A stretch of 64,000 nucleotides of DNA from a virus: positions 60,475 through 124,474 of IMG/VR virus record IMGVR_UViG_3300045988_152007, one strand, 5' to 3'. Shown here one piece after another: positions 26,905 to 62,507 of the stretch (its first letter is position 1; every line of letters starts with the position of its first letter). The translations under genes and the position numbers were made by a program. Under the pieces are notes generated by a model, which did not search any database, was not told where the DNA came from, and was given only the letters and a program-made list of their open reading frames with translations.

Positions 26905-26960
26905 AATAATTATACCTCCATATATTGTCAGTTGGTTGGTTGGTGGATGGGTGAAGAAGC

Positions 26961-27618: not shown

Positions 27619-27625
27619 TGTACTC

Positions 27626-27877: not shown

Positions 27878-27942
27878 GGGGCAGTGTTTCGTGAAAAACT
27901 TTTTCAATTTAATGTAATAAAGTCTTTCCTGGCAAAATAATT

Positions 27943-28108: not shown

Positions 28109-28309
28109 CTATTCTAACGTTTCTTTTGCAAGAGCTACGGCATCACTGGCTTCAGGACATTCAATACATAAAAAAGTTTTACCATCTACTTCGTCAATAT
28201 AAAATTCATAATTATGACCATTTACCATATGCAATTCTTCACGAAGTTTAGAGGGAATCATTAAACGTCCAACTGTATCGAGTTTTCTTGTATAAGCTGT
28301 TTTCAGCAT
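28109..28309 (-). CDS. AbrB/MazE-type swapped-hairpin DNA-binding protein
   Basis: 66 aa. RKLDTVGRLMIPSKLREEL. Confidence 0.5.
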   Translation of the reverse strand: MLKTAYTRKLDTVGRLMIPSKLREELHMVNGHNYEFYIDEVDGKTFLCIECPEASDAVALAKETLE

Positions 28310-37024: not shown

Positions 37025-37801
37025 ATGCTTTTAAAAGATATGCTTAAAGACCTAAGCGGCGTATCTGCTGTTAAGGGCGGCTACGTTGAATATGGCTATG
37101 GTCAGGTTGAGCCTAATCATTTAAGTGCTCAGCGCACTGGTCAGATTTACGCTCAATTACCTGCTAACAAAAATATCCAGCTTCTTGAAAATGGCCAGTT
37201 TGTTAAGTATGACTATGCTGCTGGTGACCTTGGTGAAGTTGATTTCACTGGCAAGGGCGAATGGATGTTAGTTTATAATGAAATTAAACTTTATCGTGAG
37301 GAACAAGCTGATTGCGAATTTGCTATGCGCAAAGACGATTATCAGGCTCGTTATTACAGCCCCTATGATGGCAAGCAGGAAATTGGTACACGTCAGGCTC
37401 GCTATTTAAACGGCAAGGATGCCGAAGGTAATACTTCTATGACTATTACAGATAGTCAGGGTGTACAACATACTTATGAGTATGATGATGTTACTGCTGG
37501 TCCTGATATTCGTGAACTCTTCTATGAAGAAGATCCTTTACATTTTGATGGTCCTTATGAGGCTCGTAGAATGCCTGCTGGCACTAATATGGTTCCTCGT
37601 GTTTTCAAGACCAATGTTGGTGATATTTTTACGACTAATACTATTGCCGAAGCTACTCTTGCAGTTGGCGATGTTTTAAGTCCTCGTGCTGCTGATGGTA
37701 TGCTTTCTAAATCTGGTGATGGCTCTATCCAATGGTAGGTTGTCAAGGTTTATGAAATGCCTGATCATCAGAAGGGCGTTAAGATTATGCGAATCGCGTA
37801 A
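37025..37801 (+). CDS. abundant head protein (decoration/minor capsid candidate); TAG-free for 237 codons, then TAG at 37736 and a 20-codon extension
   Basis: Clean ORF 37025..37738. In-frame continuation to TAA at 37799-37801 was verified. Confidence 0.5.
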
Positions 37802-38991: not shown

Positions 38992-39032
38992 GGGGAGAAT
39001 GGGGAAATCCCCTTCTCCCCTATTTTGTTTTA
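38992..39032 (+). terminator. terminator after the major capsid gene
   Basis: ggggagaatggggaaatccccttctcccc, followed by tattttgtttta. Confidence 0.55.
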
Positions 39033-39055
39033 TGAGTAAAAGGAGAATAAAAAAA

Positions 39056-39622
39056 ATGAGTAAAAAAATTTTAATAGTTACTAATAGAAGTGCTGGAATG
39101 GTTGTTTATACCATTCCTGAAGAAGGTATCCGCAGAGAATTTACACCTGGAGAAACTAAGAAAATTCCTTTTGAGGAATTAGAGAAACTTGCCTATCTTA
39201 GCGGAGGCCGCACTTTGATGGAAAACTTCTTAAAGATTGTGGATACTGAAACTACAGAAGAATTAGGTATTCATACAGAACCTGAATATTATTTAGACGA
39301 CGCTGGAGTTATTAAGCTTCTTACCGAAGGGACTCTTGATGAATTCCTTGACTGTCTTGATTTTGCTCCTATTGGAGTTATTGATATGATTAAGAGTTAT
39401 GCTGTATCTCTTCCTATGAGTGATTACAATAAACGTAAAGCTCTTAAGGATAAAACTGGATTTGACCTTGATCGAGCCTTAGCTAATAAGGAAGCTGAAG
39501 CTGCAGATGATGAACAAATTACTCCAAAAGCTCCTGAACGTAGAGTAAAGACCGAAACTAAGCTCACAACGCCTCCTGGTCGTAGAACTGCTCCTCGGTA
39601 TAACGTTGTAAAAGAAGGTTAA
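39056..39622 (+). CDS. structural protein; contains no TAG codon
   Basis: ATG after AAAAGGAGA. 188 aa. Confidence 0.45.
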   Translation: MSKKILIVTNRSAGMVVYTIPEEGIRREFTPGETKKIPFEELEKLAYLSGGRTLMENFLKIVDTETTEELGIHTEPEYYLDDAGVIKLLTEGTLDEFLDCLDFAPIGVIDMIKSYAVSLPMSDYNKRKALKDKTGFDLDRALANKEAEAADDEQITPKAPERRVKTETKLTTPPGRRTAPRYNVVKEG

Positions 39623-42955: not shown

Positions 42956-44041
42956 ATGAAATTTGGTGTTCGTGAGATATGCGATGTCGTATTAAAAGCT
43001 CGTGCTCCTATGAAGGTTGGTAATAAAGTTTTCTATGCGAACGAACCAGTTCTTTATTTTGATACATTAAAAACTTCTAGCCTTGAAGGTGCTTCTACGA
43101 CCGTATATGCACAAGGCGGACGCGGCAATGCTCGTTTAGTAGCTTGGGATGGCGACCGTACTTTAACATTCACTATGGAAGATGCTCTTATTTCTGCTGA
43201 AGGTTTCATGATTCTTGCTGGAGCAGGTCTTATTGATGCTTCGAAGCAGAATACGATTAAACAGCATGTAACTGAAAAAACAACTGCTGTCGCTCTCTCT
43301 GAAGATAAAAAGAGTGTACAAATTTTTGTTAAGAACTTACCATATGAACAAGTTGATACTACTACTGGTGCGCATAAGGGTGAATTCTATATTTATGCTA
43401 TGCGAGTTGACAATGATGAGCCAGTAACTGAACCTTATCTTCCTACAGTTATTCGTTAGACAGAGGCACCAACAAAACCTCAAAAGTTCTATTTTGATGA
43501 AACTGAAATGAAGTATAAGACCTGCACTGATGAAGAAGCTGATACTAAAGCCAAAGCTGGTACTTAGATTTATTATGGTCTTCAAATTAAGGAAATCACT
43601 TCTACTTACAAAATCGTCGATGAAACTGAAGCCGGGGCAGAACATAAGTTAGAACTCTTTGAAGGCTCTGTTGTTCTTCTTGATTATTATATTGAGAAAG
43701 CCAGCAAGACTCGTCAAATTGAAATTACTGCTGAATCTTTTGGTGGCAACTTCTATCTTGAAGCTTCTACTCTATTCCGTACTCAAGACGGCGTTGATCT
43801 TCCAGCAGAATTTATAATCCCTAACTGCAAGATTCAGTCTAACTTTACTTTCAGCATGGCCGCGACTGGCGATCCTGCGACTTTCACTTTCACGCTTGAT
43901 GCTTTCCCAGGAACTACTCGTTTCAATCCTACTAAGAAAGTACTTGCTGCAATTCAGATCATTGAAGATATTGACAATGATAGTGTCTATCGTACTCAAA
44001 CTATCCATGATCCGATGCACGACAGCTATTTTGATATTTAA
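42956..44041 (+). CDS. major tail (tube) protein candidate; TAG-free for 167 codons, then recoded
   Basis: AGGAGG RBS. The clean 42956..43459 ORF continues in frame through the TAG to TAA at 44039-44041. Confidence 0.5.
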
Positions 44042-44043
44042 TT

Positions 44044-44208
44044 ATGATTATTAGCTCTAATGCTCCACGGCCTATTAAAGCGTTTGAAGTAGAAAAAGTC
44101 GTAATTAAAAAGTCGAAAAAAGAAAATAAAATTTCTCAACAAAAAGAAAATAAAGCTCCTCTCACAGAGGATGAACTTATTGAAAAGATTATTAAAGGAG
44201 AGGGTTAA
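44044..44208 (+). CDS. small protein (54 aa)
   Basis: Followed directly by a terminator. Confidence 0.35.
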   Translation: MIISSNAPRPIKAFEVEKVVIKKSKKENKISQQKENKAPLTEDELIEKIIKGEG

Positions 44209-44230
44209 TCCCTCTCCTTTTTTTATTTTG
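44197..44230 (+). terminator. terminator after the major tail gene block
   Basis: ggagagggttaatccctctcc, followed by tttttttatttt. Confidence 0.55.
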
Positions 44231-44251
44231 TGAAAAAGGAGAGAAAAAGAT

Positions 44252-45571
44252 ATGGCAAAATTAACAAATGCCTAGAAAAATTAGTTAGTTTATTATAAAC
44301 AAAAGGGAGTTTCATATAAAAATGAAGTAAATACTCCTACTTATTTAAATAGTCTTTTGGAAACATATAGAGCAGCAGCTCGACCAAATGATATGATTAC
44401 TAATAAAGAAGTTCAGGACGCTAAATTATTAGAAGAAGTTTTAAATGGAATTAAATAGATACAAAATAATTATAGTAAAAAAATGTCTTTCACTACCGAG
44501 TCTTTAGTAAAAATAGTTTAGGATTAGGCTTTAGCCGAATTATTTAATTAGTTATATATGGTAAATCCTAATTTATTTACTAATGGAGGATTGGTGAAAA
44601 AAGGAGCTAATAGTTCTGAACGTGGTGCTTTATTAGAAAATTTTATGAATGAATTTATTACTACTATTGACTATGCTTTTTAGAATATAGAAATGCCTTA
44701 TGGTCCTTTACCTCAAACACATCGTTCTGGTCAGTTAGTTGATAGTATTAATATGAAAAATTTAATTATTAATGCTGGTGATGGAGCCATAGATAGTGCA
44801 ACAAAAACTGCCATAAATTATTTCTCTAGGCTAGCTTATAAAATTGGGCAGGAAAAAAAAGATTCAGGTAATACTACAACAGAACGTCAAAAAAATAATT
44901 TAAAAGCTGTTACTATTTATACTCAAATTAAAGAAAATGGTAAAGTCGGTGCTATTTAGAGTAAATAGATAAAAGCTGATAATACAGGATTAAATTATAA
45001 TATTTCAATAACAGCTACCGCAACAATGTTAGAACGAGTAGTTAATGCTTTATCATTAGCTACTTTTAGTGATAAAAACTATTTATCAAATAGTTTTATA
45101 GGTTTAGGCCATACTAATCCTTATCGTGTTTTTTTAACCGTAGCCGATGGAGATACAAGTTATAAGTTATATAGATATGCTCGTATGTTAAATTGTATGG
45201 CAAGGCATTCTAAAATGGCCGAGCATAATGATGTACCTAAAATGTTTTTTAGAATTAGAGCTATTTATGAATTAACAGGGGCTAAGCAAAGAGTTGGAGA
45301 TACTAAGTATGCTTATTAGAATGTAATGGCAAATTTTATTAATGATATTGGTCGTACTAAATTTTTAGTTATTAATAATCCTAAAAAAGAAGGATTCTTA
45401 AAAGTTTTATCAACAGCTAAATTGGCAAAAGATATAGAAATGAATTTATATTTTAATAAAAAATAGGGATCTAAAAGTATTTTAGAAAATGATAAAAGAA
45501 GAATGTCCATGGAACAAGCTTTATATAGTCCTATTAGTATGAATTTTGAAAAAATTTTTGAGGATTAGTAA
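44252..45571 (+). CDS. tail-associated protein, TAG-recoded
   Basis: 439 codons with about 15 TAG. Ends in TAG-TAA. Confidence 0.4.
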
Positions 45572-45578
45572 AATTTTT

Positions 45579-45607
45579 TTGACTTTGAAAAATTTTTTTG
45601 TTATAAT
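45579..45607 (+). promoter_or_regulatory. internal late promoter TTGACT-17-TATAAT upstream of the chaperone and TMP genes
   Basis: ttgactttgaaaaatttttttgttataat. Confidence 0.55.
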
Positions 45608-45684
45608 ATATTTGTAAGATAATGAAAATTAAAAAATTTACCTAGATAATTTTTTTAAAATATAATAAAGAAGGAGGCGAGGTA

Positions 45685-46212
45685 ATGGCAAAATTGGCAT
45701 TTTCCAAGCTTACACTTCAAAAAAACTCTTAGGTAAAAGAATGGAGTTTTAATGAGCAATCTATTGAAGTAAAGCAGTATTTGTCTATTAAGGAAAGAAT
45801 GGATATTGCTTAGTTGGTCATTCAACAAGTCATTGATTTTAATAATGAATTTTTGAATGAATTTGCTTTCCATATGTATATGGATTTAGCAATAGTATTT
45901 AATTATACAAATTTATCTTTTACTGATAAGCAAAAAGAAGATTTGTATAAACTTTATGATTTACTTGTTGGATCAGGGTTTATGAAAGAATTGAAGAAGC
46001 AAGTAGATTGTAATCAAACTGATGATTTAGAAGTCTATACTTATGAAACACTTAATGGATATTATAAATATCATAATAGTATTTATGGAATTATGGATGC
46101 TATGAATCAGAATTATTCTAATTTAAACTTAGATGTTAATGAACTGCAAGATAAGATTTCTAATCCTGAGAGTCTATCTTTAGTAAAAGATATTTTAACC
46201 AAGATGGGTTAA
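45685..46212 (+). CDS. tail assembly chaperone candidate, TAG-recoded
   Basis: 175 aa immediately upstream of the tape measure gene. Behind the late promoter at 45579. Confidence 0.4.
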
Positions 46213-46252
46213 AATATTATAATTAATTTCTAATTTAAATAGGAATATTAAA

Positions 46253-46287
46253 AGGCGAGAGGCTTTGTTCCTCTCGCCTTTTCTTTA
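46253..46287 (+). terminator. terminator/attenuator between chaperone and tape measure genes
   Basis: aggcgagaggctttgttcctctcgcct, followed by tttcttt. Confidence 0.45.
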
Positions 46288-46326
46288 TATATATAGAAAT
46301 TTATAATGAGAGAAAGGAGCTATTTT

Positions 46327-49300
46327 ATGGCTAATAACAGTGCTAATTATAATGTTAATATGCGATTTACAGCTGATACAGGTCAAGCTAAATAGCAATT
46401 ACGAGATTTACAAAGTTCATTAGATACTTTAATGAATTAGATAGCAACAAAAAATATTAAATTTTTTGATGTTAATGCCACTAAAAAAGAAATAGATGAA
46501 GCCTCGGCAGCAGTTTAGGAGTTAAAAATTGCTTTAGATTAGGCGACTAATGTTAATACTGGGCGTTTAGATTTATCAAAATTTTCAAAGAGTTTAAGCT
46601 AGAGTGGTTATACTCTTTAGGATTTTGCTACACACTTAGAGAATCTAGGCCCAACAGGTGATAAAGCATTTGTTGCATTAGCATAGTCTGTTATTAATGC
46701 TGAAGTTCCTTTAAAAAGAACTAACGCTATATTAGATAATTTTAAAAAGACATTAGCTAATACAGCCAAATGGCAAATTTCATCTAACTTAATGCATGGA
46801 GTATAGGGTTCTTTATAGAAAGCTTACTATTATGCAGAAGATTTAAATAGATCATTAAATGATATTCGTATAGTTACTGGATAGAGTAATGATTAGATGG
46901 CTGAGTTTGCTGAAAAAGCTAATAAGGCTGCTCAAGCATTAAGTACAACTACTACTAATTATACTAATGCTTCTTTAATTTATTATCAATAGGGTTTAAG
47001 TGATAAAGAAGTTGCTGATCGTACTGAAGTTACTATTAAAATGGCTAACGCCGCAGGCGAAAGTGCTTCTAAAGTATCTGATTAGTTAACTGCTGTTTGG
47101 AATAACTTCTATGATGGTAGCAAATCTCTTGAATATTATGCAGATGTAATGACTAAACTTGGTGCATATACTGCTTCTAGTACTGATGAAATTTCAGAAG
47201 GTATATAGAAATTCGCTTCTGTTGCTAATACTATTGGTCTTAGTTATGAATATGCTACATCTGCATTAGCTACATTAACTGCCAAAACACGTGAAAGTGC
47301 GAATACAGTAGGTAATAGCCTTAAAACCTTATTTGCACGTATTTAGGGTCTGACTCTTGGAGAAACTCTTGAAGATGGTACTGATTTAAATAAATATTCT
47401 AAAGCCCTTGAAAAAGTTGGTATTAGTATTAAAGATCAATAGGGTGAGTTAAAAGATATGAATACTATCCTTGATGAAATGATGAATAAGTGGGATAGTT
47501 TAAGTCGTGCTGAACAAGTGGCTCTTGCATAGACTGTTGGTGGTGTTCGTCAATACACTCAATTAGTTAATCTTATGGAGAATAAAGATTATTTTAAAGA
47601 GCTAGTTGGAGTGGCTAAAAATTCTGAAGGTACTTTACAAGAACAAGCTGATATTTATGCTGAAAGTTGGGAAGCTTCTAAAAAGCGAGTACAAGCTTCT
47701 CTTGAAGAAATTTATAAGCAATTAGTTAGTGATAAATTTTTTATCGGATTAAATGATACATTAAGTGATACATTAAATATTACAAGCAAATTGATTGATT
47801 CATTAGGCGGATTGCCTGGTGTATTAAGTGTTATTTCTACTTTAATGCTAAAAAGCTTCGGTCCTGATATTGTAAATAATATGCAGCGTATGGCTTCCAA
47901 TTTGTTTATTGACAGCGGAGCTGCTGAAAATTAGGCTGCGGTTATGAAGCAGTAGATGATAAATGTTTTAAAGACCTTTACAACTTATGAAGAAAAACCT
48001 GATTTAACAAAATAGGGTTCAGTTGAATTAGAAACAACTACAATGGTTAAAGCTGCAGAGGCTTCTTATGATTTATAGCTAGCAAATAATTAGTTAAATG
48101 AAACAGATAAATTAAGATTATAGACATTATTAAAAATTTCTTAGGCTTATGGACAAATAGCTATAGAATCTAAAAAAAGCATAGAAGCTCAACAAACTTA
48201 GAGTAATAACAATTTACGTAATGCTCGCAATACAATTTTTGAAGATAATAATAAAAAATTTGGTGGAGATAAGGGCGTAATTTATTTTGACAATAACTTA
48301 AAAAAAGGCCAAAAGATTGTTGATAATTTTTATAATGATAAAACAATGCAAGATTTAGAGTCTTTAAAAATTAATTCAAATGGTTCTTTTAAAGATTTTA
48401 TTTCTCAATTTGGTCAATTAGATTTAAATAATCAAAGATATAGTAAATTAAATTAGTTAATTCAATAGGGTAACAATTCTAATCTAAGTAATGGTGCTAA
48501 AGGTACTCTTAGAAAAGATATATTAGCTGAAGTTAATAATTTAAGAGACGTTAATCTTGAAATTGATAATTATGTTAATTAGAAAATTAAAGCAGAAAAA
48601 TTAACAAAAGCTTAGTCTAATGCTTTAAGATAGTGTCTTACAGATTACGTAAATGAGAAAGAGGCTCTTTTGTAGAACAAAGGAGCGGTTGAAAAATATG
48701 AGAGTGCTATTGAAGCTTTTAACGCAGAATTAAAAGCTAGTCAAGGATCTATATATAGTTTTTCTCAAGGATTAGTTTCTAGTTTTTAGGGTATTTCTCA
48801 ATTAGCTATTGGAATCAATAGTTTAAAAGGAATGTTTAATACTTTAAATAATAGCGAATTAGATTTTGGAGAAAAATTAACTTAGAGCATTACTTCGGCA
48901 AGTTTTGCTATTCCTTCTTTAATCAATGGAGTAAATTAGTTAGCTAGTGGATTAAAAGAAATTGGAACTAATTGGAAGGGACTAGGTACTAATATTTTAT
49001 CAATAATGACTGGTTTAGGAGGGTCTTTATAGGGTTCTGACTTATAGGCAGCTTTAAAGACAAAGATAGAGAATAGCTCTGGATTTAGAGCTAAAATTAT
49101 GCAAACTGGTCTTGATGCTTATACCGCCAAGCTTAAAGAATTGGGAGTAGCTGCTGGTTCTGCGGGAACTGCTGAATAGCAATTGGCAGCTAGTGGTGCA
49201 GCGACTCATGCAATGTTTACTAAATCTTTACTTGTTTTGGGTAAATATGCTTTAATAATTGGAGCAGTAGTTGCTGCCATTGCTGTATTGGTTAAAGTAT

Positions 49301-52300
49301 ATAATACAGCTTAGTCTTTTACTATAGAAGAACAAATTAAACGTTCTGAATAGGCTGTTGAGAGTTTTAAAAGTTAGTTAGAAGAAACAAAAAATAAAGC
49401 TGAATAGTTAAAATCAGTATTTGATAGTTATAGCTCTGTTAAATCTGCTTTAGATGAATGTACTGTTGGTACTAAAGAATGGCGTGCATAGTTAACTAAA
49501 GCTAATGAAGAAGCTCTTAATATTTTAAATACTTATCCTGAGCTAAAGAATATGGAAGGTGCTTGGGGCAAGAAAGATACTGGTGAAATTTGGATAGACC
49601 AAAGTGCTGTTGATAAATTATAGTCTATTTATGATAAATAGATTCTTCAATAGCAATATGCTTTAGCTAATGAACAAAGCAATTTAGAAGACTTAAATAT
49701 TGAAAAAGCTAAATAGGACTTAATAAGTAATCTTTAGGGTGTTCTTAATATTTAGAGTGGCAGTACAACTGGAGGATTAACAAAAAATGGACAATATACT
49801 TCAGTAATGCCAGGTATAGCAGATTTAATTTTAAATAATTAGGAAAATTTATAGAATAAAAGTTAGGAAGAACAAGTTAGTATTATTGAATAGGCATTAA
49901 AGAATAATGGATTTGAAACTCTCAATAACAGTACGACTTTAAATGATTATGCCTAGAAAATTGCAGATAAATTTAATACTGATGATGTTCAAGCTGCTAT
50001 ATCTAATGTCTCAAAAGTAATACAAGCAAATACTGATGCTACATTATAGGTTACGAAAGAAGCTTCAGTCCAATAGGCTCTTGGATTAGATACTATGTCT
50101 ACTGAAGATGCTAAAATAACTACTGCTTTGGTAGATGCTAATATTGAAGCTATAAAAAATAGTTTTTATAATGAGAATGGAACTATTAGTTGGGATGACG
50201 GAACTGGTAAGGACCGAGAAATAGGAACTCACGATGAAAATGCTGGTGGAGTTGGTAAAGGAGATCAAGCTTTACGTAATTTATGGGATGCTTATTTAGC
50301 AGCGATTAAAATAGATAAAAATGATAGTGAATATAAATTAGATTAGAAAAATTCTGTAATTGGTGAAGGTTAGAATAGATCATTCCAATTAGAAAATGGA
50401 AAAACTAAATCATTTTCAGAAGTTGCTACTGCGATAGCTACTATGTAGGCTATGGGAAAAGAACTTCAAACTACTTATGCTATGGCTCAAAAATTCTAGA
50501 CTGGTATGAGCAATCAAGGAACTGTAGGCCAAGGTATTTTAGAATTTTTTGGCAATGATGGTGATTTAAGTAATTTTACTCAAGATTAGCTTAAATAGTT
50601 AAAAAAAGATATAGAAAAAGGTTTTGAAGATGAAGATTTACAGAACTTAATTGGATAGAGTTTATTTGGCGAAGATTTTAATTTATTAAAACCTGAATAG
50701 CAAGAAACCGTAAAATCATATATGTCTAATATGATGAAAGAATTAGGCGTAACCAGCGGTAAAGAATTAGGTGAAGCCATAGTAGAAGAAGCATCTCACT
50801 AGATTACTAACATTGAGGATATAAATAATAATAAAGCATTTAAATATATATTAGGGCTTGAAGATGAAGATGATATATCAGAAGCAATTGATGAATTTGA
50901 AGGATATAGTGTTTCATTAAAATCTCGTATTTCTTAGATTGCAGAAGATATATTTAAAGTGGCAGGTAAAAATGGAGTCGCCGCGTTTACTGAAGCGATT
51001 AATACCATAGGAAAAGATTTAACTTTTGATTAGTTAAATAAAATAGCTGATTTTGATTGGTCTTCTGGAACTTGGGAAGAATTTATTGATACCCTAGAAG
51101 ATTTAGGTATTGTTGTGTCAGATGATGAAGGAGCTTGGAAAGGCTTCTATGATATGATGCAAGAAACTGCTAATAAATTGCCTATAGAAGATTTTACTAC
51201 TTTTAGAGATTTGTTAATTGAAATTTTTAACTTGATGGGCCAAGAAGTCGGTAGTTCTATCACTCAAGAAAAATATGATAAGATCACTGAAGGTTTTAAA
51301 GCTGCTGGATTAAATCCTGAAGATTATTATGTTTAGACTGGTCTGGATACCTATGTAAAAGTTAAAGATTTTGATACTGCTGCTAAGAATGCATTAATTC
51401 AGGCTGGAGTAGATAGAGCTGAAGAATAGCATAACGTTGCAGAGGCTCATCAAGAAGCTTGGGGATCCGGTATAAAACAAGGTGGATATATTTTTAATGG
51501 ACAAGAATATACTCAATTAGAGGCAATGCAAAAAGGTTTAACTGATGATTCTGGGGGATCCTTATTACAATAGGCTTTAGATATTTTTGGCAGTCCTGAA
51601 GAAATAGCAAAATTAGTTGGCACCGATGAAAGTGGTAATTATGATTTAGACTTCTATAAACGTTAGGATTCAGCTACTTAGGCTGCTATTATGCAAGGAA
51701 TAATAGATGCTTATATGGCTAATATTGATGGATCATATAATGCTGATTTATTAAGAACTAATGCTTATACTGATGCTAATTCAGTAAAAGAAATGAATCA
51801 AATGACAGGTTTTAATTTAGGTGATGAGGCTAGCTAGCAAGGTTTAGTAAGTTGGGCTGCTAAAAATCAAGATATTGAAGGTAATACTGAAGCTTTAAAT
51901 TAGTATAATTATGAAATGGAGTAGGCTGGAGATAATGCTAATGCCGCCCAAAAAGCTATTAATAATTTATATAATGCTTTACGTAATAATGAAATAAAAG
52001 AAGCTACCAAAGAAATTAGTGAATTAAAAACAAAATATAAAGAGCTGCGTGATGAAGGTGAAGATACTGCTGAAGTAGAAGCTGATTTAAAACAAAAAGT
52101 AAAAGATTTATTTAATTTTTCTGAATCAGATTATTAGATGAATCAACCATTAATAGAAAAATTTTTATGGGGTAATGATGATGAAGCAGCTTTAGCTGGT
52201 CAAGTCTTAGATATGTTTTCTCAAGTAGATAGTGCTTTAATCGAAAAAATAAATGAATCTGCGGGAAAATTAGATTTTTCAACATTATATACTGAAGCTC

Positions 52301-55300
52301 AATCTAAATTAACTGAAATAACTAATCTTTTATCTTAGAACGATGGATTTGTAGTTAATGGTAAAATTACAGCAGATGCTTCTTAGGCTTTAGCTGCCAT
52401 AACTCCTATCAGTGGTTCTTTAGAAGAAATGTGCGGATGGATTAATGCTATGGGCCAAGTAGGCATTCATTTCACTACTGATTAGCTATAGCAATTATTA
52501 GAATGTTTTGCTCAAATGGCTGATATTATGGGCGGTAAAGACATTAGTGATCTTACATCTGATGACGCTGCCAAGTTAAGAGATTTAAAAAGTCAAATAG
52601 GTGATATAGTTTCTGTTGCTTCTGAAGGTTCTGTTGTTACTCAAGGTGATGGCAGCAAATATTTAACCACTGAAAACGGGAATAAAGGTGGTGGCGGAGG
52701 CGGTGGAGGTAAATCTACTAAATCTGCTAATGATATTGGTAAAGAAATTCAAGATGAAGTATTAAAAACAAAAGAAAAGAAACGTGATCGTCTTGAAGCT
52801 TTACGTGAGGGAGCTAATCCAGAAGATTCTGCTAAATATATCCAAGAAGAAATAAAATTATTAAAAGAAGAGCAAGATATTCTTGAAGATTAGATTAAAT
52901 CTTGGAAAAAGTTATTAAAACTTAAAGTAGAAGAATTTAACAAAGAAAATCCAGAATTTGAAATAAAGCTTACTGATGATGGTGAAATTGCTAATGCTTC
53001 TGAGCTATGGGGTAAAGTTTGGGCTTAGTATCAAAAAAATCTTGAAGATGGCATGAGTGAAGAAGACCTGAATGAATGGTTTACTAAAATCAAAGATAGT
53101 CTTGATGGTCCTATGGGTATCCAATAGAACATTGATGAAAATGTCGCTCTTATCGCTCAGAAAGAAAAAGAAGCTGCTGAACTTGAACTCGAAGCCATTA
53201 CAAAAGCTATTGATTGGAAAGTTAAATAGATTGATTATTAGATTAAACGTCTTAATTATTATCAAGAAAAACTTCTTAAATAGGCCCATGGTAATAAACA
53301 AACTATTGAAGCAATGCTTGAAGGATTTGCTTACCAAGAGCAAGAAATGTTATAGCTCTTTGATAAAGGTGCTACATTACGTTAGGGTATTGATTAGTTG
53401 AACGCCGCGAAAGCTAAGTATCCAGGTTATGAACAAATGTTTGATGAATAGATACTTGAATATCAAAGTGATTTAATTGATGTTAATGAAGCTATTCTAG
53501 ATTTACGTAATGATATTGAAGATTTGGTTTAGAATGTTCTAGACTTGGCACTTGATGAAATTGATAAGTAGATAGAACGTCTTGATACTTATACATCGAT
53601 GCTTGACCATCTTAATAATATTATTGATTTATCTGGTCGCTCAATGCTTGATATGGGATTAAAAACTTAGATTGGTGCTACTAAGGTAGAAACAATGTTA
53701 GGTAAAATGAAATCCTTAAAAGCACAAATGGATGGTTTGGCTAAAGCAACTAAAGAGGCTTAGGCCGCTCTCGCTGATCGTCAGGCTGATGGTGATACAT
53801 CTTCTGTTAAATTCTGGGAGAATCAAGTTGAAGTATTAAAACAAGAAACTGAAAAAGCTTCTGATGAATTTTTAGCTTCTTGGGAAGAAACACTTGAAGC
53901 TGCTCAAGATTTATTTGAAATGCGTGTTGAAATGGCCGTTAATGTATTAAGTAATGCATTATCACCATTTGAAACTCTTGAAGATTTCCAAGACAAATAC
54001 GAAAAAGCAAAAACTATCAATGAAGAATATCTTGATGATGCCGAACGCTTATATGAATTAAATAAATTAAATCGTTAGCTAAATTTATAGCTGGCTGATA
54101 CTAATGACCTTTTAGCTAAACAAAAACTTAGAGACATTTAGCAAGAGATTCACGATCTTCAGGCCGATGGCGTCTAGATGAGCCAATATGATCTTGAGTA
54201 TTTGTAGAAGAAATATGACTTACAACTTGCTGAAATAGCTCTTATGGAGCAACAAAATTCCAAAACTTCAATGCGTTTAGTGCGTGATGCCGCTGGTAAC
54301 TGGACTTATGCTTATGATGCAGATGAAGAAAAAATTGAAGACGCCACATAGAAATATGAAGATGCGGTTCATGAATTAGGTAAGTTAAGTAAGGATTATA
54401 TTAATGACGTAAGTGAATAGTTAATTTAGAATCAAATTGATTTTAAAGAAGCCCTACAAGATCTTGATAAAAACTCTGCGGATTATTCAAATTAGCTATT
54501 ATCATTGCAAGAGTATTATGTTGAAAGACAAAGATATTTACTTGATGAATTAAATAAAGGTGTTGTAAATAGTGGATTAACATTCCATGATACTCTCTAC
54601 GGCCAAATGACTGATTTGTATGATTATAATGATGCTTATATGTTATTTGTTAATAATTCTAATACTACAATTAGTGAATTACAAACCAATTATAAAGATT
54701 GGCAAAAAGTTGTTGAAGCAGCAATGAACGTTGCTGGTACATCTTGGGAAAACTTTGGTTCTGATATGGGCGGTACTCTTGATAGTCTTGAAGAACATAT
54801 TCAAAAATTGTGTGATGAAATTGAAGAGCTTGTTAATGTATTAATGGGTTATATTTCTTAGTCTATTGGAATGGTTCTTGATTGGGAATAGAAATATTCT
54901 AAGCGGACTGATGAAGAGTTAGCTAAGAATGAATAGTATATTGATGGTAACTTTGGCAGTAGCGGCGGCGGAAGTGGTGCTAGAAATTTAGTTGGTGTTG
55001 ATTTAAGTGCTATTGCTATTCGTATGAAGAATGGGGAAAGTACTGTTGTTGATAAAAATGGTAACGTTTGGACGAGTATTGATGATGTAGTTACAGCCCG
55101 TAATGAAAAATTAGATAATATGCGTAATGAGGGTCAAGAATTAAAGAATGATTCTAGCACTGATTATTGGACTAAAGACGAAATGAAATAGATTACTAGC
55201 GAAAAAGATGAAAAATGGTTAGATGATATTTTAAACGGAAATGGTGCTGCTTCTGGTGCTTATACTGGTAATTGGGCTAAAGGACAAGGCTTTGGACTTG

Positions 55301-55629
55301 ATAATGGTAAAATTATTAAAGTCCATCCTAAAGAATTAATTCTTAACCAAAAAGATACTTCTAATATACTTCGTGCAGTTGATATTGTTCGTAATATGAA
55401 TGATTGGGTTGATAAACAAGTGCAATCAATGATTAATTTTGGATAGATAAAGTTGGGTAATTTAATTGATAAAACTACTCCACCTGTTTATGAAACTTAG
55501 CCAATTAAGCAAGAAGTTACTATCCAAGCAGACTTCCCAGGAGTTACTGATCATTATGAAATTGAAGAAGCATTGTCTAATCTTAGTAATAATGCGGCTC
55601 AATATATAAGTGCAAATAAATCTAAATGA
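46327..55629 (+). CDS. tail tape measure protein (about 3100 aa), TAG-recoded
   Basis: The N-terminal region matches the TP901-type TMP domain (MTKLGAYTASSTDEISEGI.KFASVANTIGLSYEYATSALATLTAKTRESANTVGNSLKTLFARI). Six ORF-track fragments are in the same frame. I verified 46327-50100 codon by codon: dozens of TAG and no TAA/TGA. TGA at 55627-55629. Confidence 0.6.
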
Positions 55630-55656
55630 GGAGGATTAATTTCCTCCTCATTTTTG
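55628..55656 (+). terminator. terminator after the tape measure gene
   Basis: gaggaggattaatttcctcctc, followed by attttt. Confidence 0.45.
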
Positions 55657-55675: not shown

Positions 55676-58600
55676 ATGGCTTATAATAGAAAAGAAGAAT
55701 ATTTAGCTACTATAAAAAAGCCAAAAGAAATAACAGATACCTTATTAGAGACTATAGATTATATAGCACGGGCACGTGATGCTGAATTATCATTTGATAA
55801 AACTATAATTGCTGAAGTTATAAGTCTAAACGACGCCAGTACTGGAGAGTATTTTGTTGAATATCAAAAAGGCAAATTCCGTGCTTATGCCCCAGCTACA
55901 TTAACTTATGTATATTCTAAAGGAACTAATGTATATGTAAAAGTACCAGGCGGTGATTTTACTTAGAAAAAAACTATTGAAGGCAAAGCATCTGCTACTT
56001 CTTATACAGAAGAAGAATATAGCGATTTATCTTAGCAAGTAGTTGAAATAAGTGAAATATATAGCAATGGTAATGAATATGGTATCTTAGCTTATGCCCC
56101 AGAACCTAAAAAGGAAGAAGAAGAAACTCCAAAAGATGATAAAGATAATTCATCAAATGATACAAAAGAAGGTACTGCAACTGATACTTAGGCTGAAGAT
56201 AGTAAAGAACCGATAGAAGAGGAAGAAGATAAAAGTAAATATTATGAATAGGTAATTTATGAAAATGATAATCTCACTGAAGATGTAATTTTTACCAGTT
56301 TATTAACTACTTATCCTCGTATTATGATTTAGGCCGATTTTAGAACATAGTTTTATGGAACAATGATGGCTGGTAATTATGGATTAAAAATTGATTTTGT
56401 AGAAAAAGATACAGGTATTGTTTTTAGTCGTAGATTAGATATTATAAATTTCTCTGGTAGTATTTACGATTATGAAGTATTTTCACCATAGTATGTAATT
56501 TATGATTTAACTGGAATTAATTTAATTGGCATAAAAAAAATTACATTTTTTCAAGAAAGATTTTTAAGATATGATACTGTTTTTAACGGTAAAGGTGAGA
56601 TAACTGCGGTTTATAATAAAGAACCTAATCTTTTTGTCAAAAATATAAAACTTAGTTTTGTTGATGTCCAAGATTCTACTAAAGATTTATATTATGTAGG
56701 TATTAGCGCGCCATAGGGTTTATCATTAATTCAAGATACCGATAAAATAAAATTAATAGGCGTTTTTTATTATGCTAATAAAAATATATTAGAAGAAAAA
56801 ACTTGCAAATGTTATTGGTATAAATAGAATCCGGCAGTTCTATCTGGTAGTGAAAAATATGATTAGATAGGCGGCCCTGGGTGGGAATGTATTAATGATA
56901 GTTCTAATGTAAGATTTAATGAACTAACTATTTCGGGCAAAGATGTATATCAATAGATGCGATATAAATTAGTGGTAGTATATAATTCTAATGTTACTTT
57001 ATATAAAGATGTTAGAGTAGTTAAATATTATAATGAACGATTTACTATAATTCCGCAATTTATTAGTGAAAATGAAGTTAAATTATCTATTGTAGATTCA
57101 TTAGAAACTATTAATGAAGCTGATTGGTATGTTGATTTGATGGATGGATCATATTTACCTTTATCTACTGGAGTTAGTTAGATTGATGTAAGTTAGTTTT
57201 TAGAATATGGTAATGTAATATTTTATAGTGTTAGTAAATTAGATACTGGTGATTATGTACCTTGCGAATATAAATTAATTACTTATAAACAAGAATCGCC
57301 CGTGCGAGTAGTATTTAGTGGAACAGATACTTTTTAGTATGATGTTAATGGTAGTATTTCTTTAGATTAGGCTAATAAAGAAATAATTATTACTCCAACT
57401 ATTAGCGTAGATAAGGAAAATATAGGAGTTAAAAGTGTTACTTGGTATTCACCTGATGGAGGAGAACTTTTAGAATATCCTACTACTAAAATTACTAATT
57501 CAATGCTTTCAAAGCTTTGGATAGATAAAACTAATAATGCTTTACATTATTATATTAAACCTAAATATGTAGATACTTATACTAATAATACCTTATCATT
57601 AAAAGTAATAACATTAGCTGATAAAGAATTTAAGTTTAATAAAAGTATTGTTTTTATTAAACCAGGTGACTCAACAGTTAGTGGTTTAGATTATCAATTA
57701 ATTATTAAAGATTGTAATGTTGATGGCAGTGAACTCGATACTAAACCTATTAATAAAAAAAGTGGGTCTGGTTATGAACCGATTTATCTTATGCCAGAAG
57801 TAAGATATAATGGTAATAAAATAATAAATGGTTCTGCTTATTAGGATGCTGTTGGTAATGTCACAGATAAATATAAAATAACTGTTGAAGCAGATCCTAT
57901 CAATTTAGATTGTGAAAAAGTAAATAAAGAAAAAAATGTATTTAAAATTTCAAATCCAGTTGAAGATTGTAAGGGTTAGTATTTTATAAAATTTAAAGTA
58001 ACTATAGGGTTAGAGAATAAAGCTATTACAAATTAGACTTTATATTATTACAAGCCTATAATGGTTAGTACTAATTTTGTAGTTAATAGCATTGGTAATA
58101 TTAATATACCTTCTAAAATTACTTATAATGAAAAGGGAACTCCTTCTTTAATAAATAAATAGATTTCTTTTATGTATAAATATGATGGTAAAAAATTTAT
58201 TGATTTATTATAGGTTACTAATCCAGTGTCTCTTACTGATTATATAATTATAGTTAATTCTACTAATTCTGATAATGTAAAATAGCAATACCTTAGACCA
58301 CAAGAAAATTATCCAGGTGCTTATTTTGCTAAATCCACTGACCAAGTAAAAACAGTTCCTATGGGTGCATTATAGATTTTTTTGCCAGATAATAAAGGTA
58401 GTTTATTTTATCCAATAGTAATGCTTAATAATAAAGATATTACTATTATAACAGATGAAGATAATGATGGTACTAATATACCCGTACTTGATGAAGATAA
58501 TGTAGAATCTGAAAAGCCTCTTGATCCAGGGTTTTCTCATGGTAGGCCTTGGGCGCGAGATGAAGGTAAAACTTATGTAGGTTCTTTGTGGGAAAATAAA

Positions 58601-58972
58601 CGTAGAAAATATACCTTGCCTATCGAAGATCCAGGAAAAGATTTAGAAATTTAGACATTAAGTTTAGAAGCTGAAGAAGAACCAGCGGAAGAATTAGATA
58701 GTTCAGGGTTTGTTTCAGGATTATATCAATATGATATAGATGGTATTCCTACCAATATTTTGCGTTCTGATGGAGTTGTAAAATTAGCAGGAGATGCTTT
58801 ATGTTTTAATGTTGATGGTTCTATTTAGTTAAAAGAAGAAAGTGTGACTAATATTTTAACAGTAGCTAAATTGCTAAATGAGATAGCTACAAATGCTGAT
58901 TTAAAACAATAGTTATCTGATTATATTGCTCCTAAAAATATAAAATTACGTGATTGGTATATTGAAGAATGA
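55676..58972 (+). CDS. large tail protein (distal tail / tail-associated), TAG-recoded
   Basis: Four fragments in frame. 1098 codons. TGA at 58970-58972. Followed by a terminator. Confidence 0.45.
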
Positions 58973-59003
58973 TGGATTTTTATCCATCATTCTTTTTTTT
59001 TAT
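58967..59003 (+). terminator. terminator after the 55676..58972 tail gene
   Basis: gaatgatggatttttatccatcattc, followed by ttttttttt. Confidence 0.55.
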
Positions 59004-59078
59004 TTGGACCAAAATAGTATGTTTACAATATATAATTTTTAAAAATAAATAGAAATAAGAGTTAAAGGAGGTCAATAA

Positions 59079-62000
59079 ATGGCAGCGTCCACAATAAATA
59101 TAAATAGAGTATATCCGCCTATTGTAGATAGTTCAATACCAGCATTTTTAGCAACTGCGGCCTCTATTAATATAAATTTTTCTTTACCTAAATCATTAAA
59201 TTATGAGGATGTAAAGAATATCTCAATTAAATTTGTATAGCAATCCAATAATAAAAGTATAATTAATACTGATAAATATTGGGATGGTATTATTTATATG
59301 GAAAAGCCAACTACCTCTACTGATAATGAAATATATACAGTTACTGTAAATAGTTCAGATATTAAATTAGGAGATACAATAGGTTGGGTTTCTAATACTT
59401 ATTATAAAATTTAGATACGTTTTGGCTATGGGAAAATAGATTATACAGATAAAATTTCATTTTTTAAATGGAAAAAATCTTAGACTGTAGCTGAAGCTTT
59501 TTCAGAATGGTCCAATATTATAATTACTAAAGCAATTGATGATCCAATTGTAGAAATATTAAATAATAAAGATACTTCTTCATTAGATGTAGGATTTATT
59601 TTAATATCAAGTAATAATATAGAAGTTAGCCGTTTCCCTAAATTTGAGGGAGGATATCAAAGCGATACTGAACCATTGGATAAATATCGTTTTAGATTAT
59701 ATGAAGGCAGTTTTAATTCAAAGAATCCTCCAAGTTCTGAGCCATATTTATAGAGTGATTGGCTATAGTATAATGGTGGAGGGAAAGATAAATATAGTGC
59801 TTTAGTCTCTTATAGTTTTAATAGACAATTAGATTAGACTGGAATAAAAATGTATTCATTGATTTTTGATGTTATTACAATGAATAATTATCAAAAATCT
59901 TCTGAATATTATAATTTTACTATTACTGAAAATTATTTAAAATAGTTATAGACTTTAGTATTTACAGTAAAAGATAATACTGAATCTACCATATTATTAA
60001 ATAAAATAGCCGGAGCAAATCAAGTTGCTTTTTAGATGTATAAGGAATATTTTGGATTAAAAGGATAGGCTCCTAAATTTATTAAAGGTTATTATGATGA
60101 TGCAGATGGGTATAATGCGGGAGATATAATTTATCAAACTGGTAATATTAATGAAGATAATATAGAAACTCATGTATTAAGTAAAATTACTAGAATAAAA
60201 GCAATTGAAGATTTTAGTCATAATTTGCGAGCTGATGAAAATGGCAGCTTAGAAATTTATATTAAAAATAATCCTTATGAAGTAAAAGAAAAAATAACTA
60301 TTACTACTATTACTGGTGAAAAAGTAGAACGTGAAATAGATGTAGAAAAATATCAATCTCTTGATGGTACTTTTATTTTATCAAGAGCTTGTGAAACTGA
60401 TAATTATACTCAATGGAAAGATATAGCTCAATTTGATTGGTATAATGAAACTAATTATGATGATAAGTTAACTTTATTATATGAAGATTTTACTGTTGAA
60501 AGTGGAGTTAAATATAAATATGCTTTATAGAAATAGAATGCTGTAGGATTAAGAAGTGCCCCTAAATATGAAAGTGATGATATTGATTCATCACCAGCGC
60601 ATTGGTCTAATTTTTAGTATAGTTATATTTATAATAATGGTATTCAAGTTCGTTTAGATTTTGATTGCAAAATGAATAGTTATAAGCATACTACTTTATT
60701 CCAAAAGCAAGATAGCTTGAATTCTAAATATCCGATTATTTTGCGTAATGGATTGGCACATTATGCAGAATTTTAGTTAGGTGCAAAAATTTCTTTATTA
60801 AGTGATATTGATTCTTCTTTTTTAATGCGTAATGATGCTAAAGGTGGTTATTATCATAGTTGGTATGGAGATATAGTTATTTCAAAAGATAAATATATTA
60901 AAACTTTTGAACGTGATTTATAGAATCCATATAACAATGATTATAATATAAGACAATATAATATTCAAAATGCTTCTACATTTAATACTAATCCAACTAA
61001 TGATAATATATATATGGAACGTATATATAGACATTGGGTAGAAGAATTTTTAAATGATGGTGGTTATAAATTATTTAAGTCACCAACTGAAGGAAATCAT
61101 ATAGTTACTTTAACTAATGTTACTTGGACTCCTCAAGCTTCTTTATATCGTATGATTTATGATTTTAATTCAACAGCTTATGAAGTAGCTGATTGTACCC
61201 CAGAAAATATTATCTTATATTAGATAAATCCATTAACTACTTTGTCTAATAATTCTAAATTAGCAATTTAGAATGCTAGTACAAAAACTAAAACAGTTAT
61301 TGGGCAAGTAGCTCGAACATTTAATGGAAAATATGCACAGGAAATTACTAATAATAAATTATCTATAGTTGATAATAATAAATTTAATCTTACTTATGAT
61401 AACATTTGTAACGCAATAAAACTTCAAGAAGAACAAGAAATAAGTGAAGATAGAAAATATCGAGTAAGAAGAATAAAAGCGATTTGGGTAGAATAGTATC
61501 CTAAACTAAATCTTAAAAATAAAATAGAATATTTAAAAAATAAAACTAGTTCAACTATGATAGGTCAGTTAACTAATGCAGTTGAATTATTAAGATGTGA
61601 ATAGCTTTTATAGGAATATGAAAAAAATTAGACTAATATTATTACTATGATAATAAATGGTAAAGAAATTTCTATGATGCCCAGTCGTATTTATCATTTG
61701 GATGATGCCATTATTGATAGTATGTATTTAAAATTTACTCGCCCTATTTTAATTAATTATATAGTTGATTTAGAGGAAGAAGATTTCTTAGAAATGGTGA
61801 CTGTTATTAAGCGTGAATTTGCACAATGGGGATAGCTTGGTGGAGTATTTACTGATACTCAAGATATTCTTGATAATTATTAGTTCTTTAGAAATGATGA
61901 TACTTAGATAGTTAATGAAAAATATAATTATGGATTATATTCTACATTAAATTTAATGGATATAATAAAAGAAAAAGTACATACTTCTATTTTAAATAAT

Positions 62001-62507
62001 TATAGTGATGAAAAACTTGAATCTACTTTTGATTTATTGTATAATGATATAAATGAATTTTTAAATAGAGTTAAAGATGATACAGAGTCTATTGAAGAAT
62101 TATTAATAACTGGTACATAGTTATTAGAAAATTATAGACCTTTGTCTGGATTAACTTTAAATAAATAGACTGATGCTTGGATGAATGGTTCAGATCAATT
62201 AATTATATATAATTTTACTGGTATTGATAGTATCGAAATTGAAGCAGATGCTAATACAGATTTAGTTTTTTATAGAGAGTATGATCTTGATGCAACTACT
62301 GGTAATTATCATATTAGTTCTCCTGGCACTCATGTACGTATTGGACCTACTAATAAATTAATTTTAAATCCTTTGAAAGATGAGATTGTTAAAGTAGAAT
62401 TTGTTAGACCTACTTATGCAATAGTTAATTATAAATCTGTTTTATCTTTGGAAGTTAAAAAAGGTAAGCAGAAAGAAAAAGATGAATCATAGGAGAAAAC
62501 GGAATGA
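59079..62507 (+). CDS. large tail fibre/baseplate protein, TAG-recoded
   Basis: Four fragments in frame. 1142 codons. TGA stop overlaps the next ATG (ATGA). Confidence 0.45.

What the first reader, a model, noticed from the sequence alone, without database searches (positions are those of the whole stretch)
46327..55629. Exceptionally long tape measure gene (about 9.3 kb, about 3100 aa) written with more than 150 TAG codons
A single frame runs from ATG 46327 to TGA 55627. All six ORF-track fragments are congruent and the first 3.7 kb was verified. The N-terminal 450 aa is a recognisable TP901-type TMP domain. The rest is low-complexity and coiled-coil-like, with a Gly9 run near 52690 and a hydrophobic segment near 49200. 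At about 0.15 nm per residue this implies a very long tail, or additional non-ruler domains in the C-terminal third (for example lytic or penetration functions).
Basis: partly seen in the sequence, partly recalled or inferred. Interest (0 to 1): 0.55.

Follow-up and report, generated by a model that had tools for sequence, protein, structure and literature searches.

The report
Long TAG-recoded phage tape measure gene
This is a real 3,100-residue tail tape measure gene of a roughly 188 kb gut phage that reads TAG as glutamine, but genes of this size and coding are normal for its clade and already published for related phages, so it is a solid yet ordinary find.

Summary
The ORF is real. Positions 46327-55629 form one frame of 3,100 sense codons from ATG to TGA, with no TAA and no internal TGA. 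It contains 108 in-frame TAG codons, not more than 150. TAG behaves as glutamine: in two relatives it exchanges mainly with CAA/CAG, and conserved blocks show many synonymous and few non-synonymous changes in this frame. The N-terminus is a TP901-type tape measure core (TIGR01760, PF10145). The gene lies between an SPbeta-type tail tube gene and large distal tail genes.

The length is not exceptional. Among the 150 best cluster representatives sharing the N-terminal core, the 125 of at least 2,400 aa have a median of 3,013 aa. Lactococcus phage phiL47 has a 3,275-aa TMP and a measured 480 nm tail. Published TAG-recoded gut phages (phAss-1 group) have 3,149-3,209-aa TMPs; I counted 110 TAGs in phAss-1. 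Thermus phage P23-45 has 5,002 residues.

No lytic domain is detectable in this allele. Sister alleles (77-94% identical) carry an NlpC/P60 peptidase inserted near the C-terminus. The rest of the protein is helix-rich, not repetitive, and only 4% low-complexity. The predicted tail is about 455-465 nm.

Verdict: new member of a known kind; interest is low to moderate.

The parts
46327..55629 (+). Tape measure protein (TMP) gene: 3,100 sense codons plus TGA; 108 TAG codons read as Gln
   Evidence: frame continuity; TMP families; identical 3,100-aa protein in public data; TAG exchanges with CAA/CAG; purifying selection in this frame.
46313..46319 (+). Ribosome-binding site AAAGGAG, 7 nt before ATG 46327
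   Evidence: Read from the sequence. The in-frame ATG at 46306 lacks such a site.
46250..46282 (+). Terminator-like hairpin (13-bp stem followed by a T-rich tail) directly upstream of the TMP gene
   Evidence: The SPBc2 record annotates stem-loops on both sides of its TMP gene yomI. Function is inferred.
46828..47817 (+). TP901-type tape measure core (aa 168-497; PF10145 covers aa 199-406)
   Evidence: TIGR01760, 118.6 bits, cut-off 28.8; PF10145, 97.6 bits, cut-off 33.2. It is 98-100% conserved in the family.
49210..49320 (+). Strongly hydrophobic, transmembrane-like segment (aa 962-998)
   Evidence: Kyte-Doolittle 19-aa mean up to 2.35. The surrounding region aligns with phAss-1 TMP aa 945-1087.
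52687..52710 (+). Gly8 run (aa 2121-2128) at the border between a variable block and the conserved helical block
   Evidence: The run length varies in relatives. AlphaFold places a helix break here. PolyG tracts are common in TMPs (PMC13585406).
52774..54876 (+). Highly conserved helical block (aa ~2150-2850)
   Evidence: It is 97-100% identical across 119 relatives. For aa 2251-2750, synonymous changes run at 0.17-0.23 per codon against 0.012-0.04 non-synonymous. AlphaFold DSSP gives 90% helix at low confidence. It is homologous to phAss-1 and VRE9_3 TMPs.
54979..55239 (+). Small alpha/beta module of unknown function (aa ~2885-2971); relatives carry an NlpC/P60 insertion at its C-terminal edge
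   Evidence: pLDDT is about 80-89 in the 261-aa model. No PDB fold match was found, all E>1.
55243..55626 (+). Conserved C-terminal end (aa ~2973-3100), presumed tail-tip anchor
   Evidence: It is nearly invariant in the family. It is shared with VRE9_3, SPbeta YomI and phiL47 TMPs and with distant clade members. The tip location is inferred from general knowledge of TMPs.
55628..55646 (+). Weak terminator-like hairpin overlapping the TMP stop codon
42956..44041 (+). Tail tube gene (SPbeta YomU-type), only 2 TAG codons
   Evidence: phrog_2729. PF27173 YomU_Tube is recorded for the same gene on the source contig and in relatives.
44252..45571 (+). 439-aa protein with no family match, between the tube and TMP genes
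   Evidence: no hits. It is conserved in position in relatives.
45622..46212 (+). phrog_30570 protein, possibly a tail assembly chaperone. The ORF opens at 45607; the first ATG is 45622; the public gene call is 175 aa (start about 45685).
   Evidence: The same PHROG sits between the tube and TMP genes in Enterococcus phage VRE9_3. No overlapping frameshift ORF was found. The role is inferred.
55676..62507 (+). Two large distal tail genes (1,098 and 1,142 aa), followed by a tail protein gene starting at 62504
   Evidence: The genes have 25 and 27 TAG codons.

Best explanation
This is the tail tape measure protein gene of a siphovirus-type gut phage with a genome of about 188 kb. The phage's virion module is related to Bacillus phage SPbeta, and its late genes are written in genetic code 15 (TAG = glutamine).

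Shown: one 3,100-codon ORF with a TP901-type core at the N-terminus, a transmembrane-like segment near aa 962-998, a long helix-rich body, and a conserved C-terminal end. It lies between the tail tube gene and the distal tail genes.

Inferred: the extended helical protein sets tail length during assembly, giving roughly 455-465 nm. The C-terminus sits in the tail tip. On infection the protein is expelled, and its hydrophobic segment helps form the passage for DNA.

Inferred: the 108 TAG codons mean the protein can only be made once TAG is decoded almost completely, at 99% or better per codon. In related phages this is done by a phage suppressor tRNA(CUA), which is not in this window.

Shown: this allele lacks a recognisable cell-wall hydrolase, whereas sister alleles carry NlpC/P60 at the same place.
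For: Single ORF: 0 TAA and 0 internal TGA in 3,100 codons, against 158 and 499 in the other two frames.

Translated in this frame: in the conserved blocks, synonymous changes against two relatives run at 0.14-0.23 per codon and non-synonymous at 0.012-0.04.

TAG = Gln:
- Of the window's 108 TAGs, 73-76 align to TAG in relatives that are 77-81% identical. The commonest replacement is CAA/CAG (12-16 cases), and the same holds in reverse.
- Gln in this gene is written TAG 108, CAA 108, CAG 7.
- All 18 late genes checked end in TAA or TGA, and 52 early minus-strand ORFs have no in-frame TAG.

TMP identity:
- TIGR01760 and PF10145 score above their curated cut-offs, and ten PHROG tape measure families match.
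- The upstream gene is YomU_Tube, and other SPbeta virion families are in the same module.
- There are collinear N-terminal, middle and C-terminal matches to the uninterrupted standard-code TMP of Enterococcus phage VRE9_3 (2,673 aa) and to the phAss-1 TMP (3,150 aa, 110 TAG).

Ruler behaviour:
- Family length stays within 3,060-3,285 aa.
- Variable blocks reach 0.40-0.53 non-synonymous changes per codon but only 2-3 gap codons per 250.

Calibration: phiL47 has a 3,275-aa TMP and a 480 nm tail.

Helix content: 85-90% over aa 1901-2873.
Against: No suppressor tRNA was found in the 64 kb window or in 10 kb beyond its left end. The decoding agent is therefore inferred from related phages.

No virion, proteomic or microscopy data exist for this phage, so the tail length and the single full-length product are predictions.

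The AlphaFold models are low confidence (mean pLDDT 45 and 53). Only the secondary structure and one small module are usable.

Alignment to distant standard-code TMPs showed no Gln enrichment at TAG positions, though this test had low power at about 25% identity.

No canonical frameshifted chaperone pair was found upstream.
Confidence: 0.9

Rival explanations
1. TAG is only leakily suppressed. The gene would then mainly yield a ladder of truncated N-terminal products, with full-length TMP a rare species, so that TAG density acts as a throttle on expression.
For: TAG use is uneven. The capsid-like gene (37819-38955) has 0 TAG and the tube gene has 2, while the TMP has 3.5 TAG per 100 codons, the highest in the window. 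That pattern would fit copy-number tuning. A terminator-like hairpin also precedes the gene.
Against: With 108 TAGs, full-length yield is e^108: 34% at 99% decoding per codon and 0.4% at 95%. A tail cannot be built without the conserved C-terminal end, which is under strong purifying selection. Decoding must therefore be nearly complete. Relatives keep 110-120 TAGs in the same gene.
Confidence: 0.06
2. The ORF is a fusion or read-through of two or more genes, for example a TMP plus a separate tail or lytic protein, or a degenerating pseudogene whose TAGs are true stops.
For: PHROG and Pfam matches cover only about the first 550 aa strongly. The standard-code annotation of phAss-1 in GenBank splits its homologue into many small ORFs.
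Against: There is no TAA or TGA anywhere in 9.3 kb. The N-terminal core and the C-terminal end lie in single uninterrupted standard-code TMPs of cultured phages (VRE9_3, YomI, phiL47) and align collinearly with this ORF. More than 100 protein clusters keep the same 3,060-3,285-aa architecture. Purifying selection extends to the last block.
Confidence: 0.02
3. TAG encodes an amino acid other than glutamine in this phage.
For: No tRNA was recovered, so the anticodon and identity elements cannot be inspected. At TAG positions, distant TMPs show generic polar residues (T, E, S, N, K) rather than Q.
Against: Among close relatives, CAA/CAG is by far the commonest partner of TAG, even though TAG to CAA needs two base changes. 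Conversely, 13 of the 47 window CAA codons that differ in L001 are TAG there. Late genes are depleted in CAG relative to early genes, as if TAG had replaced CAG. Code 15 has metaproteomic support in other gut phages, according to the abstract of PMC9523058 (listed).
Confidence: 0.03

Closest known systems
Tape measure proteins of phAss-1, ctckW2 and ct6IQ4 (proposed Phassvirus; TAG-recoded human gut phages, PMC10607447)
   Same: They use code 15, and their TMPs are 3,149-3,209 aa. My reading of the phAss-1 record gives 3,150 aa with 110 in-frame TAGs. Similarity is collinear in the N-terminal core (32% identity), the hydrophobic region (31%) and the C-terminal helical block (27%). They belong to the same wider group as Enterococcus phage EF1.
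   Different: Their genomes are about 133-136 kb, against about 188 kb here. Sequence similarity is only 27-32% and patchy, so this is a different genus-level lineage or further. phAss-1 has three tRNA-Sup-CTA genes; none has been recovered here so far.
Lactococcus phage phiL47 / 949 group TMP (orf166)
   Same: It is a very long TMP (3,275 aa) in a large virulent siphovirus of a Firmicute, with a measured 480 nm tail (PMC3888941). It shares the TP901 core and the C-terminal motif.
   Different: It uses the standard code with no TAG. The core sits at aa ~570-1007 rather than at the N-terminus. Identity is about 24%. The genome is 128.5 kb.
Enterococcus phages VRE9_3 / EF1 TMP (phrog_34405)
   Same: These are the best cultured relatives over the N-terminal 540 aa (26% identity), with further matches in the C-terminal helical block and the C-terminal end. 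The structural genes are syntenic (phrog_4088, 31155, 2729, 30570).
   Different: The TMP is 2,673 aa, in standard code, in a genome of about 140 kb. The order of the genes between tube and TMP differs.
Bacillus phage SPbeta YomI
   Same: It is the TMP of the phage whose virion protein families (YonD, YonB, YomW, YomV, YomU) also make up this phage's structural module. It shares the TP901 core and the C-terminal motif. Hairpins flank the gene in both.
   Different: It is 2,285 aa and in standard code. It is annotated as a transglycosylase in some records, whereas no hydrolase domain is detectable here.
Thermus phage P23-45 TMP
   Same: It is a giant TMP that sets an extremely long siphovirus tail.
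   Different: It has 5,002 residues, an 800 nm tail and an RNA polymerase fused at the N-terminus (abstract of bioRxiv 10.1101/2022.12.01.518664, listed). No homology with it was tested or claimed. It shows that 3,100 aa is not a record.

Membership tests
Phage tail tape measure protein, TP901 family (TIGR01760 / Pfam PF10145) | Match to the family profile above the curated cut-off | tested here: met
   TIGR01760 scores 118.6 bits against a cut-off of 28.8, at aa 168-497. PF10145 scores 97.6 bits against 33.2, at aa 199-406.
Phage tail tape measure protein, TP901 family (TIGR01760 / Pfam PF10145) | Gene lies between the tail tube or chaperone genes and the distal tail genes | tested here: met
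   A YomU_Tube / phrog_2729 gene lies upstream. Large tail genes (phrog_1887, phrog_32343) lie downstream.
Phage tail tape measure protein, TP901 family (TIGR01760 / Pfam PF10145) | Long, mostly alpha-helical body with hydrophobic segment(s) | tested here: met
   AlphaFold DSSP gives 85-90% helix for aa 1901-2873, at low pLDDT. The hydrophobic segment is aa 962-998. Only the C-terminal 1,200 aa were modelled.
Phage tail tape measure protein, TP901 family (TIGR01760 / Pfam PF10145) | Length is conserved even where sequence is not (ruler constraint) | tested here: met
   Variable blocks have 0.40-0.53 non-synonymous changes per codon with 2-3 gap codons per 250. Family lengths are 3,060-3,285 aa.
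Phage tail tape measure protein, TP901 family (TIGR01760 / Pfam PF10145) | Protein length proportional to measured tail length | not testable with these tools
   No virion images exist. Only an analogy is available: phiL47 at 0.147 nm per residue.
Genetic code 15 (TAG = Gln) phages with recoded late genes | Many in-frame TAGs in long ORFs bounded only by TAA/TGA, concentrated in structural genes | tested here: met
   There are 233 TAGs in 18 late genes, all of which end in TAA or TGA. There are 0 in-frame TAGs in 52 early ORFs.
Genetic code 15 (TAG = Gln) phages with recoded late genes | TAG positions correspond to Gln codons in homologues | tested here: met
   Close relatives have CAA/CAG as the main alternative to TAG in both directions. 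The test against distant standard-code TMPs was inconclusive.
Genetic code 15 (TAG = Gln) phages with recoded late genes | Phage-encoded suppressor tRNA(CUA) or other code-change machinery | tested here: inconclusive
   No tRNA is present in the 64 kb window or in 10 kb beyond its left end. About 115 kb of the genome could not be reached. Some recoded phages lack such genes.
Tape measure proteins carrying a cell-wall hydrolase domain (as in the NlpC/P60-bearing sister alleles) | Recognisable peptidoglycan hydrolase domain within the TMP | tested here: not met
   Pfam, NCBIfam, PHROGs, PDB sequence and Foldseek searches find none in this allele. PF00877 is present in about 35 of 119 close relatives, as an insertion of about 145 aa after aa ~2953-2972.
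SPbeta-like virion module | Structural genes match SPbeta-derived families in conserved order | tested here: met
   YonD_N, YonB, YomW, YomV_2nd and YomU_Tube are recorded on the source contig upstream of the TMP, from precomputed Pfam hits. YomI shares the core and the C-terminal motif.

The most novel reading that the evidence does not exclude
The code switch may work as an assembly gate with the TMP as its most sensitive element. The high-copy proteins (capsid-like protein 0 TAG, tube 2 TAG) are almost free of TAG. The low-copy tail initiator needs 108 consecutive TAG decodings, so tails could only be nucleated once termination at TAG is essentially abolished. That would imply active neutralisation of release factor 1 rather than mere suppressor competition. 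Separately, the small alpha/beta module at aa ~2885-2971, which occupies the place where sister alleles add NlpC/P60, could be an undescribed cell-wall-binding or penetration domain.
Probability: 0.2. Interest if true: 0.55.

Novelty: new member of a known kind. Interest (0 to 1): 0.25.

Why it matters
It is a clean worked example that annotation in the standard code breaks this gene at 108 internal TAG codons, so the largest structural gene of a widespread gut phage lineage is lost. It adds a lineage of about 188 kb to the group of SPbeta/EF1/phAss-related siphoviruses with tails of about 450 nm. Two features could be tested. One is an NlpC/P60 presence/absence polymorphism at a fixed site near the TMP C-terminus. 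The other is the inverse relation between TAG density and expected protein copy number. It does not change what is known about tape measures or about recoding.

Tried and rejected
- Megablast of window 40000-64000 against 50,697 phage records found no match.
- phmmer of the whole protein against PDB sequences found no hit.
- Foldseek of the C-terminal model against the PDB gave nothing below E=1.
- Rfam at gathering thresholds gave no hit in the window.
- ARAGORN found no tRNA in the window or in locus L010.
- Self-BLAST and TRF on the TMP found no internal repeats, so the length did not arise by tandem duplication.
- Testing for Gln enrichment at TAG positions against distant standard-code TMPs was uninformative at about 25% identity.
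- A search for a G/GT-type frameshift ORF between the tube and TMP genes found none.
- Pfam on the neighbouring tail genes gave no domain above its curated cut-off.
The search for a suppressor tRNA stopped there.
- I considered that the higher-GC stretch at 12-28 kb, with its short ORFs, might use another code or be non-coding. It is a dense array of small minus-strand early genes, so I dropped the idea.

Full report
**Observation**

The stated frame is exact. Positions 46327-55629 make 3,101 codons beginning with ATG and ending with TGA. There is no TAA and no other TGA.
- The other two frames of the same stretch contain 158 and 499 TAA/TGA codons.
- From base composition, the chance of 3,100 codons free of TAA/TGA is about 1e-92.
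- The count of in-frame TAG is 108, not more than 150.
- ATG 46327 is preceded by AAAGGAG at a 7-nt spacing.
- The identical 3,100-aa product is already present in public protein data, on contigs of about 188 kb.
- The glycine run is Gly8 (aa 2121-2128), and the hydrophobic segment is aa 962-998.
- The body of the protein is not low-complexity. SEG masks 4%, and there are no internal repeats at protein or DNA level.

**Is TAG sense, and which amino acid?**

I codon-aligned the gene with two relatives fetched as DNA: L001, whose product P0120 is 77% identical, and L003, whose product P0100 is 81% identical.
- Of the window's 108 TAGs, 73-76 are TAG in the relative. Where they differ, the commonest partner is CAA/CAG (12-16 cases). 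The same holds in the reverse direction.
- In this gene glutamine is written TAG 108, CAA 108 and CAG 7 times.
- In the conserved blocks, synonymous differences (0.14-0.23 per codon) far outnumber non-synonymous ones (0.012-0.04). The sequence is therefore translated in this frame across the TAGs.
- Across the window, 18 plus-strand late genes carry 233 in-frame TAGs and all end in TAA or TGA. Fifty-two minus-strand early ORFs carry none.

This is the pattern described for code-15 phages (bioRxiv 10.1101/2021.08.26.457843; PMC10607447). No tRNA gene lies in the window or in 10 kb beyond its left end. The decoding agent is therefore inferred, not shown.

**What the protein is**

- TIGR01760 (tape_meas_TP901) matches aa 168-497 at 118.6 bits against a cut-off of 28.8.
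- PF10145 matches aa 199-406.
- Ten PHROG tape measure families match the N-terminal part.
- The upstream genes are a terminase, a portal, a capsid-like protein and a tail tube protein of the SPbeta YomU type. On the source contig the module also carries the YonD, YonB, YomW and YomV families.
- Downstream lie two genes of about 1,100 aa and a tail protein gene.

Local BLASTP shows collinear matches to three parts of the phAss-1 TMP. It also matches the N-terminal core, the C-terminal helical block and the C-terminal end of the uninterrupted standard-code TMP of Enterococcus phage VRE9_3. SPbeta YomI and phiL47 share the core and the C-terminal motif. That rules out a fusion of separate genes.

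**Architecture**

Alignment of 119 close relatives gives the layout:
- The N-terminal core (aa 1-550) and a block at aa ~2150-2850 are 97-100% conserved.
- The regions aa 650-1000, 1700-2150 and 2880-2975 are variable.
- The variable blocks reach 40-53% non-synonymous codon differences yet have only 2-3 gap codons per 250. Length kept while sequence drifts is what a ruler predicts.
- The only large indels are about 43 aa before the hydrophobic segment and about 145 aa near the C-terminus.

AlphaFold on aa 1901-3100 is low confidence (pLDDT 45). Its secondary structure is 85% helix for aa 1901-2873 and 90% for aa 2134-2873, with a break at the Gly8 run. The last 227 residues are mixed. In a separate 261-aa model, a small alpha/beta module (aa ~2885-2971) is confident (pLDDT 80-89). 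It has no PDB fold match.

**Lytic domain question**

No hydrolase domain is detectable in this allele. However, about 35 of 119 close relatives (for example P0046, 94% identical) carry Pfam NlpC/P60. It is inserted right after that small module and before the invariant C-terminal end. In a sample of 14 distant clade members, one has NlpC/P60 and three carry Hint/intein domains. I did not map which members those are.

**Is the length exceptional?**

No.
- phmmer of aa 1-536 against 1.84 billion cluster representatives gave 2,817 hits at E<=1e-30.
- Among the best 150 (44-88% identity), 125 are at least 2,400 aa. Their median is 3,013 aa, the interquartile range 2,844-3,113 and the maximum 4,156. 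Thirty-three of the 150 are 3,100 aa or longer.
- Cultured phages match or approach it: phiL47 at 3,275 aa with a measured 480 nm tail, VRE9_3 at 2,673 aa, PBC2 at 2,304 aa and SPbeta YomI at 2,285 aa.
- Published TAG-recoded gut phages have TMPs of 3,149, 3,150 and 3,209 aa. I counted 110 TAGs in the phAss-1 gene.
- Thermus phage P23-45 has a 5,002-residue TMP (abstract).
- PolyG tracts are common in TMPs.

**Mechanism**

Shown: this is one long helical TMP gene in code 15.

Inferred from general knowledge of tape measures and from the phiL47 calibration:
- The protein sets a tail of about 455-465 nm.
- Its conserved C-terminus sits in the tip complex.
- It is expelled at infection, and the hydrophobic segment may help form the DNA channel.

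Inferred from arithmetic: full-length yield is e^108, that is 34% at 99% decoding per codon and 0.4% at 95%. TAG decoding must therefore be nearly complete late in infection.

**Noticed along the way**

- TAG density is lowest in the presumably most abundant proteins (capsid-like 0, tube 2) and highest in the TMP.
- Late genes are depleted in CAG relative to early genes.
- Terminator-like hairpins flank the TMP gene, as annotated around SPbeta yomI.
- No G/GT-type frameshift ORF was found.

**Verdict**

The claim of exceptional length is not supported, and the combination of a long TMP with TAG recoding is already published for a related group. It is a new member of a known kind.

Noticed in passing
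window 29355-62507 (late genes) versus 1-29000 (early genes): TAG use is uneven among late genes. The capsid-like gene 37819-38955 and gene 38999-39622 have 0 TAG, genes 35798-37000 and 37025-37801 have 1 each, and the tube gene 42956-44041 has 2. The TMP has 108, which is 48% of its Gln codons. Early ORFs write Gln as CAA 60 / CAG 99 with no TAG. Late genes write it as CAA 238 / CAG 50 / TAG 233, as if TAG had replaced CAG.
   Followed up: partly
window 11944-12135, 12745-13107, 28109-28309 (minus strand): Three of the 52 early minus-strand ORFs I picked end in TAG. If they are real genes, they would be read through once the code switches.
   Followed up: no
window 44194-44220, 46250-46282, 55628-55646: Terminator-like hairpins lie after the tail tube gene, immediately before the TMP ribosome-binding site, and over the TMP stop codon. 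The SPBc2 record annotates stem-loops on both sides of yomI.
   Followed up: partly
relatives P0046-P0119 (for example L003 3001-12858), site equivalent to window ~55186-55242: There is an NlpC/P60 presence/absence polymorphism (about 145 aa) at one fixed site in otherwise 77-94% identical TMPs.
   Followed up: yes
distant clade TMPs in alignment A3 (P0122-P0263): Three of the 14 sampled TMPs carry Hint/intein-type domains, so inteins are probably inserted in tape measure genes. I did not check which members they are.
   Followed up: partly
window 44000-46330: No overlapping frameshift (G/GT-like) ORF lies between the tube and TMP genes. A 439-aa protein with no family match (44252-45571) sits there instead. 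Cultured relatives have a 330-450-aa gene directly before the TMP, annotated as integrase-like in phiL47 and PBC2.
   Followed up: partly
window 1-29000 and locus L010: The early region is a dense array of small minus-strand genes. It includes an RNA-ligase-like gene (window 5574-6944) and a chorismate mutase-like gene. An S-adenosylmethionine synthetase gene lies just beyond the window's left end, and a GIY-YIG gene is also on locus L010. The window is reverse-complemented relative to the 188,411-bp source contig and wraps its end.
   Followed up: no
window 12000-28000: G+C is higher here (0.38-0.43) than in the rest of the window (0.25-0.36). GC skew changes sign near 29-30 kb, where gene orientation flips from minus to plus.
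   Followed up: no
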